This document shows positions 37,770-37,930 of a DNA stretch of 64,000 nucleotides, in pieces (the first letter of the stretch is position 1; each line of letters opens with the position of its first letter). The stretch is from a virus. Its lineage: Duplodnaviria > Caudoviricetes. The stretch is taken from positions 1 to 64,000 of IMG/VR virus record IMGVR_UViG_3300015610_000750. The stretch is one strand, 5' to 3'. The notes beneath the pieces were generated by a model. That model saw only the letters and a list, made by a program, of their open reading frames with translations. It searched no databases and had not been told where the DNA came from. Position numbers and translations under genes: made by a program.

Positions 37770-37874
37770 AAAATAAAAAATCTCCTTATCTGTGACCTGT
37801 CAATACTTGACAATTAACTCATTAAACTTAATGCATCGAGGCAAATAAGTTGAGTAGTCCCAGTTAAGGAGATT
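37770..37874 (-). terminator. terminator/attenuator-like multi-stem RNA structure in the operon leader
   Basis: AATCTCCTTAACTGGGAC (37874-37857) pairs with GTCACAGATAAGGAGATT (37796-37779), followed by a U-tract; internal hairpins TGTCAA/TTGACA and CATTAA/TTAATG. Confidence 0.6.
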
Positions 37875-37910
37875 CCGAATTTTATATGTGTTAATCTACA
37901 TCATTTTCAT
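37800..37910 (-). CDS. putative leader peptide MKMM*INTYKIRNLLNWDYSTYLPRCIKFNELIVKY with in-frame TAG at codon 5
   Basis: ATG AAA ATG ATG TAG ATT AAC; frame stays open to TGA at 37802-37800; lies just downstream of a TATATTTG promoter. Confidence 0.55.
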
Positions 37911-37922
37911 TTTATTATAGTA

Positions 37923-37930
37923 CAAATATA
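37923..37930 (-). promoter_or_regulatory. Bacteroidetes-type -7 promoter element TATATTTG
   Basis: Matches TAnnTTTG about 12 nt upstream of the leader ATG. Confidence 0.6.

What the first reader, a model, noticed from the sequence alone, without database searches (positions are those of the whole stretch)
37770..37930. Readthrough-coupled transcription attenuator in the leader of the Pth2/HD operon
Seen: a TATATTTG promoter, then leader MKMM-TAG. Beyond the TAG the frame stays open for 31 more codons (to TGA at 37802-37800) and runs through the 5' arm (37874-37857) of a long-range stem. The 3' arm (37796-37779) is followed by a U-tract, as in an intrinsic terminator, and the ~60-nt loop holds further hairpins. 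Inference: ribosomes stopping at the amber leave the terminator free to form, while read-through ribosomes occlude the 5' arm and allow transcription into the operon. This is attenuation logic with stop-codon readthrough as the input.
Basis: partly seen in the sequence, partly recalled or inferred. Interest (0 to 1): 0.85.

Follow-up and report, generated by a model that had tools for sequence, protein, structure and literature searches.

The report
Amber-codon leader with terminator hairpin
A phage operon for two probably tRNA-related enzymes is preceded by a tiny gene with an early UAG stop and a large terminator-like RNA hairpin, and comparison with about 30 related phages suggests the operon is transcribed only when ribosomes read through that stop, a switch I found in no paper.

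Summary
On the minus strand there is a Bacteroidota-type promoter and a short ORF with TAG as codon 5. A 96-nt hairpin (37874-37779) follows, then a U-tract, then a Pth2-like gene.

The element is real and conserved. It occurs in 42 related metagenomic and huge-phage loci (about 30 distinct sequences). The hairpin covaries: 88.5% of cells pair, against 35-48% in slid controls. Wherever the hairpin occurs, the leader carries TAG.

In all 29 distinct relatives checked, the frame after TAG stays open for 11-13 codons. It ends Pro-Pro-stop exactly on the base of the 5' arm.

All 78 Pth2 homologues with readable upstream sequence also carry an in-frame TAG near their N-terminus. Many have a CUA-anticodon tRNA next to them.

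Several things remain unshown:
- Termination and ribosome stalling are inferred, not measured.
- This phage lineage has a 4-nt shorter spacer. Its leader misses Pro-Pro-stop and runs 31 codons to TGA.
- Neither this contig nor two complete relatives encode a recognisable suppressor tRNA.
- TAG is otherwise an ordinary stop here.

Earlier notes of this scan describe the same design on other DNA.

The parts
37923..37954 (-). Bacteroidota-type promoter: -33 TTTG (37954-37951), 20-nt spacer, -7 box TATATTTG (37930-37923)
   Evidence: Pattern match. The 22-nt block AAACTTTT.ATATATATTTGTA is unique in the window. It is conserved in relatives even where the upstream gene differs. In leader-less relatives the same promoter type drives a tRNA(CUA) gene.
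37800..37910 (-). Leader ORF: ATG 37910 (family-conserved ATG ATG at 37904-37899), TAG 37898-37896, then 31 codons to TGA 37802-37800
   Evidence: All 29 distinct relatives checked read M-M-TAG-I-x-T-Y...P-P-stop, 14-16 codons. The window's spacer is 23 nt instead of 27/30/33, so its frame passes the arm. Seven other assemblies carry the same leader.
37779..37874 (-). Long hairpin: 5' arm 37874-37857, inner hairpins 37855-37817 and 37812-37798, 3' arm 37796-37779
   Evidence: Folds. z = -5.6. Covariation across 27 sequences. Strongest T-tract-adjacent hairpin in the contig.
37770..37780 (-). U-tract TTTTTTATTTT directly after the stem
   Evidence: Nearly invariant ATTTTTATTTTAAA in relatives. 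Same TTTTATTT tail as the phage's ordinary short terminators.
37751..37769 (-). A-rich spacer with no room for a separate promoter; likely SD-less initiation region of the next gene
   Evidence: upstream regions of the contig's genes are 55-68% A, and only 4 of 108 have an SD-like core.
37382..37750 (-). Pth2-like gene, ATG 37750, in-frame TAG 37741-37739 (codon 4)
   Evidence: 78 of 78 homologous loci have an in-frame TAG with an ATG 1-7 codons before it; 71 of 78 have no ordinary start after it. With TAG read through, the Pfam PTH2 match starts at profile position 2. The match stays below the Pfam cut-off (21.7 vs 23 bits).
36766..37404 (-). Second operon gene, no TAG gate, function unknown
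36180..36764 (-). Third operon gene (weak HD-domain match), ATG 36764, in-frame TAG 36758-36756 (codon 3)
   Evidence: relatives start ATG TAG ATT or ATG TTG TAG ATT. LR745206 starts ATG AAT ACT TAG ATT. Pfam HD E = 0.028, below cut-off. phrog_14850.
35279..35308 (.). Short bidirectional terminator at the end of the operon, after ORFs 36169-35771 and 35771-35292

Best explanation
This is a cis-regulatory leader of the Pth2-like/HD-like operon. It most likely works as a ribosome-mediated transcription attenuator whose control codon is a UAG stop.

Proposed sequence of events:
1. Host RNA polymerase starts at a Bacteroidota-type promoter.
2. A ribosome loads on the short leader ORF and meets UAG at codon 3 (codon 5 from the first ATG here).
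3. If release factor 1 ends translation there, the 5' arm, 22 nt (here) to about 30 nt (relatives) downstream, stays free. The long hairpin forms, and its U-tract terminates transcription before the operon.
4. If UAG is decoded, the ribosome moves onto the 5' arm. In relatives it reaches Pro-Pro-stop, a slow-terminating context, lying in the base of that arm. In this lineage it translates through the hairpin to a UGA 3 nt before the 3' arm.
5. The hairpin then cannot form and polymerase reads on. The Pth2-like and HD-like genes each carry their own early UAG, a second lock at the level of translation.

Shown by the data: the parts, their conservation, the covariation, the coding signature of the leader, and the exclusive use of TAG.

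Inferred: termination at the U-tract, stalling at Pro-Pro-stop, ribosome-polymerase coupling, and what supplies UAG decoding.
For: 1. The hairpin is under structural selection. In 27 sequences 88.5% of cells pair, against 35-48% when partners are slid. Ten of 19 pairs change on both sides, and 0 of 500 shuffles reach the observed values. Each homologue folds to one rod with z from -4 to -9.8.
2. The U-tract is nearly invariant and matches the tail of the phage's ordinary terminators. The gap to the Pth2 ATG is 19 nt here, and a few nt longer in relatives by my reading of the aligned sequences, leaving no room for another promoter.
3. The leader is read as protein past TAG. In 20 distinct TAG-to-arm spacers, frame 0 has no stop. 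Frame +1 has stops in 17 and frame +2 in 19. Spacer lengths are 27, 30 or 33 nt in 29 of 30 sequences. The second Pro codon occurs as CCT, CCA, CCG and CCC. The stop is TAA or TGA.
4. Every locus with the hairpin has the TAG leader.
5. The control codon is always TAG, never TAA or TGA, although TAA ends 75% of the contig's genes. All 78 Pth2 gates are followed by a purine. Only 5 of the contig's 13 ordinary TAG stops are.
6. A tRNA-like gene with a CUA anticodon loop lies beside the Pth2 gene in at least 25 of 56 leader-less loci, in L030 together with the leader, and 1 kb away in LR756500.
7. Published work shows that ribosomes prevent intrinsic-terminator hairpins when coupled to polymerase (PMC5021804). 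It also shows that ribosome occupancy at leader stop codons changes attenuation (PMC5373646). Poor termination after C-terminal Pro-Pro is from my own knowledge.
Against: - There are no transcript or ribosome data.
- The window's leader lacks Pro-Pro-stop, because a 4-nt shorter spacer shifts the frame.
- In the one variant of this lineage, both substitutions keep base pairs and one changes an amino acid. In this lineage the extended peptide may therefore not matter.
- The 103-kb contig has no tRNA gene at all.
- The complete relatives LR745206 and LR756502 carry the leader. Among their 61 and 50 tRNA hits none has a recognisable CUA anticodon.
- TAG ends 13 of 109 genes in this contig, so strong suppression would be costly.
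- The hairpin is 55-111 nt, far longer than the phage's usual 20-40-nt terminators.
- I saw no G-rich leader segment that could pair with the CCUCC arm as an antiterminator, though I ran no dedicated search. RNAalifold on alignment A4 gave only an invariant 4-bp mini-hairpin around the TAG.
Confidence: 0.5

Rival explanations
1. The hairpin is a constitutive, partly leaky terminator, insulator or RNA-stabilising element. It could also be an RNase III-type processing site. It sets a fixed low level of operon transcripts and stops read-in from the upstream late gene. Regulation by UAG would then act only at translation of the Pth2-like and HD-like genes, and the leader ORF would be an evolutionary copy of the Pth2 5' end.
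For: The leader start (ATG ATG TAG ATT AAC) resembles the Pth2 start (ATG AAA AAC TAG ATT AAC). In L030 both are preceded by the same AATATATAA motif. The window's lineage has lost the Pro-Pro-stop yet persists in many samples. Long rod-like hairpins are typical nuclease substrates (own knowledge).
Against: A dead copy would not keep frame 0 open, keep 3-nt spacer steps, or keep Pro-Pro-stop on the arm in 29 of 30 sequences. Nor would it always keep TAG together with the hairpin.
Confidence: 0.2
2. The element is a translational arrest-peptide switch. A ribosome held at the end of the leader melts the hairpin and uncovers the initiation region of the Pth2-like gene, as in SecM/secA or RAPP-type leaders. 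Earlier notes of this scan read sister elements this way.
For: The 3' arm contains AAGGAGG, a perfect Shine-Dalgarno sequence. It pairs with the Pro-Pro codons CCUCC. RAPP/RGPP-like C-termini are known arrest motifs (PMC10951233, PMC12992588). Many relatives end in RPP.
Against: Only 4 of 108 genes of this contig have an SD-like core, below the background rate, and their leaders are A-rich. The GGAGG lies about 30 nt before the Pth2 ATG, too far to act as an SD. The ATG and A-rich region lie outside the hairpin. A conserved U-tract follows the stem.
Confidence: 0.1
3. The short transcript from promoter to U-tract, about 140-150 nt, is itself the product. It would be a small regulatory RNA or a small-peptide mRNA, and the operon would be expressed by other means.
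For: A promoter, a conserved single-stranded 5' segment and a terminator hairpin form the usual anatomy of a bacterial small RNA. The inner loop carries a semi-conserved motif, YYWGCY...GCAC.
Against: The element is found only directly upstream of the Pth2 gene, with no room for a second promoter. Its 5' segment resembles the gated gene starts rather than being complementary to them. There is no Rfam match.
Confidence: 0.07
4. UAG really terminates. ATG ATG TAG and ATG AAA AAC TAG would then be 2-3-codon minigenes of the lambda bar kind, causing peptidyl-tRNA drop-off linked to the phage Pth. Alternatively they are uORFs followed by re-initiation at the adjacent ATT.
For: The ORFs before TAG are 1-7 codons long and sit next to a peptidyl-tRNA-hydrolase-like gene. 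ATT follows TAG in most cases. No suppressor tRNA is found in two complete leader-bearing relatives.
Against: The stop is TAG in 78 of 78 gates and in all leaders, never the commoner TAA. In several loci the codon after TAG is GTA, AAC or ACA, including the leader-bearing L036. A CUA tRNA is often adjacent.
Confidence: 0.05

Closest known systems
pyrBI leader attenuator of E. coli (own knowledge)
   Same: A leader ORF runs into an intrinsic terminator hairpin. A ribosome that keeps up with polymerase physically prevents the hairpin. No antiterminator structure is needed. The window's own 36-codon leader resembles this form most.
   Different: pyrBI senses UTP through polymerase pausing. Here the decision point is a UAG codon early in the leader.
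trp/his/phe leader-peptide attenuators (Yanofsky model; PMC3082878, PMC5373646)
   Same: A short leader ORF contains control codons that report the availability of one decoding species. The read-out is an intrinsic terminator before the first gene.
   Different: Those use sense codons and competing hairpins, and a stalled ribosome gives read-through. Here the control codon is a stop, only one hairpin is seen, and ribosome progress gives read-through.
Pro-Pro/RAPP-type arrest leaders (ApdA, ApdP, SecM; PMC10951233, PMC12992588) and TnaC (PMC8450073)
   Same: Relatives end in xPP-stop, often RPP-stop, placed to hold a ribosome on a regulatory RNA segment. TnaC also stalls at its stop codon after Pro.
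   Different: Those act on translation start sites or on Rho access, and they sense secretion or tryptophan. The window's leader does not end in Pro-Pro.
Stop-codon recoding in phages with suppressor tRNAs (code 15; bioRxiv 10.1101/2021.08.26.457843; PMC9523058)
   Same: In-frame TAG keeps genes silent until UAG can be decoded. Suppressor tRNA(CUA) genes occur in related phages.
   Different: In recoded phages TAG is spread through late genes and is not used as a stop. Here TAG ends 12% of genes and appears in frame only at three N-termini of one operon. That preprint contains none of the words 'leader', 'attenuat' or 'hydrolase'.
prfB (RF2) autoregulation (own knowledge)
   Same: An early in-frame stop codon reports release-factor activity.
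   Different: prfB uses a +1 frameshift at UGA within the gene, not a leader with a terminator.

Membership tests
Ribosome-mediated (leader-peptide) transcription attenuator | Short ORF directly downstream of the promoter and upstream of the first operon gene | tested here: met
   ORF 37910-37800 lies after the promoter at 37954-37923. A coding signature is seen in relatives.
Ribosome-mediated (leader-peptide) transcription attenuator | Intrinsic terminator (stable hairpin plus U-tract) between the leader and the first gene | tested here: met
   Met by sequence and structure only: a covarying hairpin and a conserved U-tract with the same tail as the phage's terminators. Actual termination could not be tested.
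Ribosome-mediated (leader-peptide) transcription attenuator | Leader ORF overlaps a terminator or antiterminator strand, so that ribosome position decides the fold | tested here: met
   In relatives the stop codon lies in the base of the 5' arm. In the window the ORF crosses the 5' arm and ends 3 nt before the 3' arm.
Ribosome-mediated (leader-peptide) transcription attenuator | Alternative antiterminator hairpin (trp type) | tested here: inconclusive
   RNAalifold on alignment A4 returned only a 4-bp invariant mini-hairpin around the TAG. That alignment is not in structural register, and I ran no dedicated antiterminator search. By eye the leader has no G-rich segment to pair with the arm. 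This feature is not required for the pyrBI type.
Ribosome-mediated (leader-peptide) transcription attenuator | Downstream mRNA level responds to leader translation | not testable with these tools
   Needs Term-seq, reporters or in vitro transcription-translation.
Pro-Pro/RAPP-type arrest leader | Leader ends in (R)xPP at the stall site | tested here: not met
   The window's leader ends ...IVKY-TGA. All 29 distinct relatives checked end PP-stop.
Recoded (code 15) phage | TAG is not used as a stop and is frequent inside genes | tested here: not met
   TAG ends 13 of 109 predicted genes. Coding density is already 91-96% under code 11. There are only three in-frame TAGs, all in this operon.
Recoded (code 15) phage | Genome encodes a tRNA with a CUA anticodon | tested here: not met
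   No tRNA in the 103-kb contig. None recognised in LR745206 or LR756502. Present next to the gene in many leader-less relatives. The contig may be incomplete.
Any Rfam family | Covariance-model match | tested here: not met
   No relevant match at E up to 10 in 36500-38500.
PTH2 peptidyl-tRNA hydrolase (PF01981), first operon gene | Pfam match above the gathering score | tested here: inconclusive
   18.6 bits without and 21.7 bits with the N-terminal extension, against a cut-off of 23. Some homologues carry a precomputed PF01981 hit.

The most novel reading that the evidence does not exclude
The leader-bearing phages, including this one, seem to lack their own suppressor tRNA. The operon may therefore be a tripwire. 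It would stay shut, by terminator and by UAG gates, until something foreign makes UAG readable in the infected cell. That could be a competing TAG-recoded or suppressor-carrying phage, or loss of release factor 1. The Pth2-like and HD-like enzymes would then be made to act on the offending tRNAs. A milder version is a homeostat that limits suppression in standard-code phages.
Probability: 0.12. Interest if true: 0.9.

Novelty: new variant of a known kind. Interest (0 to 1): 0.72.

Why it matters
If it works as inferred, this is a natural sensor of stop-codon readthrough built from ordinary attenuator parts. It would give a concrete regulatory target for the suppressor tRNAs found in phages that otherwise use the standard code.

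It would also link UAG decoding to a conserved pair of probably tRNA-directed enzymes. And it would provide a compact, portable genetic part that reports amber suppression.

The hypothesis is directly testable with reporters. The family is wide: 78 loci from lake, marine and gut or animal metagenomes.

Tried and rejected
- Rfam search of 36500-38500 at E up to 10 gave nothing relevant.
- The protein-based scan of IMG/VR found no relative. The 17-mer DNA scan of IMG/VR gave only chance hits.
- RNAalifold on a plain MAFFT alignment found no long stem, because the arms were out of register. I replaced it with per-sequence folds and a hairpin-only alignment.
- General TAG recoding was rejected.
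- Masking of a Shine-Dalgarno site by the GGAGG arm was rejected for this phage.
- Two further candidate TAG gates proved spurious. At 59636 an ATG follows the TAG directly. At contig position 78683 the real gene is in another frame.
- The search for a CUA tRNA in LR745206 and LR756502 was negative. I used BLAST with a relative's tRNA, all 111 Infernal tRNA hits checked with ARAGORN or by eye, and an anticodon-loop plus T-loop pattern. The only pattern hits were UCU (Arg) tRNAs. One tRNA-like gene with a 31-nt insert (LR745206 365524-365647) stays ambiguous.
- Whole-record tRNA searches of metagenome contigs were not possible.
- DNA of the contig that carries P0001, the representative of the window protein's cluster, was not available. 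Other members of the same protein cluster supplied it.

Full report
**Context.** The window is part of a 103-kb, 31% GC contig of a T4-like phage. It carries genes like gp25 baseplate wedge, clamp loader and gp15 tail sheath stabiliser. At the DNA level it resembles only uncultured 634-kb and 642-kb huge phages. Coding density is already 91-96% under the standard code. TAG ends 13 of 109 predicted genes. The contig has no tRNA gene. Only 4 of 108 genes have a Shine-Dalgarno-like core, and their upstream regions are 55-68% A. Promoters of the form TTTG-N19-21-TAnnTTTG occur in the window. Both traits point to a Bacteroidota-type host. I know that promoter consensus from memory, not from a tool.

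**The observation.**
- The promoter lies at 37954-37923.
- The leader reads ATG AAA ATG ATG TAG at 37910-37896.
- The frame stays open to TGA at 37802-37800.
- The arms 37874-37857 and 37796-37779 close a loop that holds two hairpins.
- The U-tract lies at 37780-37770.
- The Pth2-like gene starts 19 nt after the U-tract.

The fold is far more stable than shuffled sequence, with z = -4.8 for the region and -5.6 for the hairpin. It is the strongest hairpin abutting a T-tract in the whole contig. Its tail, TTTTATTT, is the one used by the phage's ordinary 20-40-nt terminators. Seven other assemblies from different samples carry the same leader and hairpin, so it is not an assembly artefact.

**Relatives.** Homologues of the Pth2-like protein are common in metagenomes. 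I fetched 80 loci by protein similarity, which does not bias the upstream region. I added further loci by exact protein look-up.

In 78 of 78 loci with readable upstream sequence, the frame of the conserved core is interrupted 5-15 codons upstream by TAG. It is never TAA or TGA. An ATG lies 1-7 codons before the TAG. In 71 of the 78 there is no ATG, GTG or TTG between the TAG and the core. With TAG read through, the Pfam PTH2 alignment of the window protein starts at profile position 2 instead of 14. The third operon gene has a weak HD-domain match. It carries the same early TAG here, in metagenome relatives and in LR745206. Within the 103-kb contig these are the only such gates.

**The leader family.** Forty-two loci, about 30 distinct sequences, carry the element upstream of the Pth2 gene, whatever the preceding gene is. 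The order of parts is always the same:
- a conserved promoter block;
- ATG ATG TAG ATT;
- 9-11 further codons;
- CCT CCN TAA or TGA;
- a hairpin of 55-111 nt whose base is CCUCC paired with GGAGG;
- ATTTTTATTTTAAA;
- an A-rich spacer;
- the gated Pth2 start.

The hairpin is supported by covariation. On a 27-sequence alignment, 88.5% of cells pair, against 35-48% when the 3' partners are slid. Ten of 19 pairs show changes on both sides. None of 500 shuffles reaches the observed values. Each homologue folds into one rod with z between -4 and -9.8.

The stretch after TAG behaves as coding sequence:
- In 20 distinct spacers, frame 0 never has a stop. Frames +1 and +2 have stops in 17 and 19.
- Spacer lengths are 27, 30 or 33 nt in 29 of 30 sequences.
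- The wobble base of the second Pro codon takes all four values, with compensating changes in the 3' arm.
- The stop stays a stop, TAA or TGA.

An independent regex for the hairpin finds it only where the TAG leader is present.

**The window's own copy is the exception.** Its spacer is 23 nt. The frame therefore passes the arm (AAT CTC CTT AAC) and runs on to TGA, 3 nt before the 3' arm. This form is fixed in a widespread lineage. The single variant, L171, has two substitutions. Both keep or improve base pairs, and one changes an amino acid. That hints that structure matters more than the extended peptide in this lineage. With only two changes, the hint is weak.

**Mechanism.** The arrangement matches ribosome-mediated attenuation. 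There is a promoter, then a leader ORF whose end sits on the 5' arm of a hairpin with a U-tract, and no room for a second promoter. Release at UAG would leave the arm free and let the terminator form. Decoding of UAG would bring the ribosome onto the arm.

In relatives the ribosome would end at Pro-Pro-stop. I know this context as slow to terminate, and arrest at RAPP-like motifs is documented in PMC10951233 and PMC12992588. The ribosome would then block the hairpin, as coupled ribosomes are known to do (PMC5021804). Ribosome occupancy at leader stop codons is known to shift attenuation (PMC5373646).

The long hairpin may give the ribosome time to arrive. That is inference. In the window's lineage the ribosome would instead translate through the hairpin, as in the pyrBI attenuator.

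The exclusive use of TAG points to something specific to UAG: a CUA tRNA or release factor 1. So does the purine after every gate, against 5 of 13 ordinary TAG stops. From memory, a 3' purine favours amber suppression.

**What supplies readthrough is open.** A tRNA-like gene with a CUA anticodon loop lies beside the Pth2 gene in several settings:
- in at least 25 of 56 loci without the leader, of which ARAGORN confirms 6 (7 with L030);
- in L030, together with the leader;
- in LR756500, 1 kb from the gene.

In those leader-less loci the same promoter type drives the tRNA. Only 1 of 42 leader-bearing loci has such a tRNA nearby. The two complete leader-bearing genomes show none among 111 tRNA hits. 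The leader and an adjacent suppressor tRNA are thus nearly mutually exclusive. The leader may sense a suppressor encoded far away, in non-canonical form, or not by this phage at all.

**Rivals.**
- A constitutive terminator or processing hairpin with a vestigial leader does not explain the coding signature or the strict link between TAG and hairpin.
- A translational switch that unmasks a start site is how earlier notes of this scan read sister elements. It does not fit a phage that lacks Shine-Dalgarno use and whose start lies outside the hairpin.
- A small-RNA product or a bar-like minigene remain minor possibilities.

**Literature.** Full-text searches on phage stop-codon recoding, suppressor tRNAs, leader peptides and attenuation found no description of such an element. 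The main recoding preprint contains none of the words 'leader', 'attenuat' or 'hydrolase'. I rate this a new variant of a known kind. Earlier notes of this scan report the same design on at least eight other genomes. Those are unchecked AI notes, and I did not count them as evidence.

Noticed in passing
window 37750-37739 and 36764-36756 (minus strand): The Pth2-like and HD-like genes each start ATG-(1-2 codons)-TAG-ATT. The Pth2 gate is universal in 78 of 78 homologues. The gene between them has no gate.
   Followed up: yes
L059-L109 (metagenome loci), L029, L030, L175: The leader-hairpin and an adjacent CUA-anticodon tRNA are almost mutually exclusive upstream of the Pth2 gene (1 of 42 against at least 25 of 56). 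The same promoter type drives whichever is present. Many of these tRNA-like genes are non-canonical and are missed by ARAGORN. Some have 8-9-nt anticodon loops.
   Followed up: partly
LR745206 344211-344291 and 365524-365647; LR756502 401809-401887 and 388572-388674: These are odd tRNA-like genes inside the huge phages' tRNA arrays. Two appear to lack a D-arm. Two carry a 31-nt insert in the anticodon loop that shares the motif TTAAATGATG.
   Followed up: partly
window 33950 (-), 32388 (+), 8353 (+); contig 83703 (-), 86533 (+), 89974 (+): The motif ATATAG lies 0-5 nt before the ATG of several genes (for example TATATAGATAATG). It may be a phage-specific promoter or start-site signal.
   Followed up: no
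window 37855-37817 and aligned columns 44-72 of A5: The apical loop of the inner hairpin keeps a motif, YYWGCY...R.GCAC, across subfamilies whose stems differ. It could be a protein-binding or tertiary-contact site.
   Followed up: no
window 22938-22969, 23024-23055, 29341-29310 (-), 56228-56258: There are further TTTGG-N-TATATTTG promoter-like sites. Two of them are near-identical copies 86 nt apart, upstream of ORF 23083-23469.
   Followed up: no
L171 (SRR32548950) against window 37856 and 37791: This is the only variant of the window's hairpin among seven assemblies. Its two substitutions turn U.G into C-G and U-A into U.G. One of them changes Tyr to His in the extended leader frame.
   Followed up: partly
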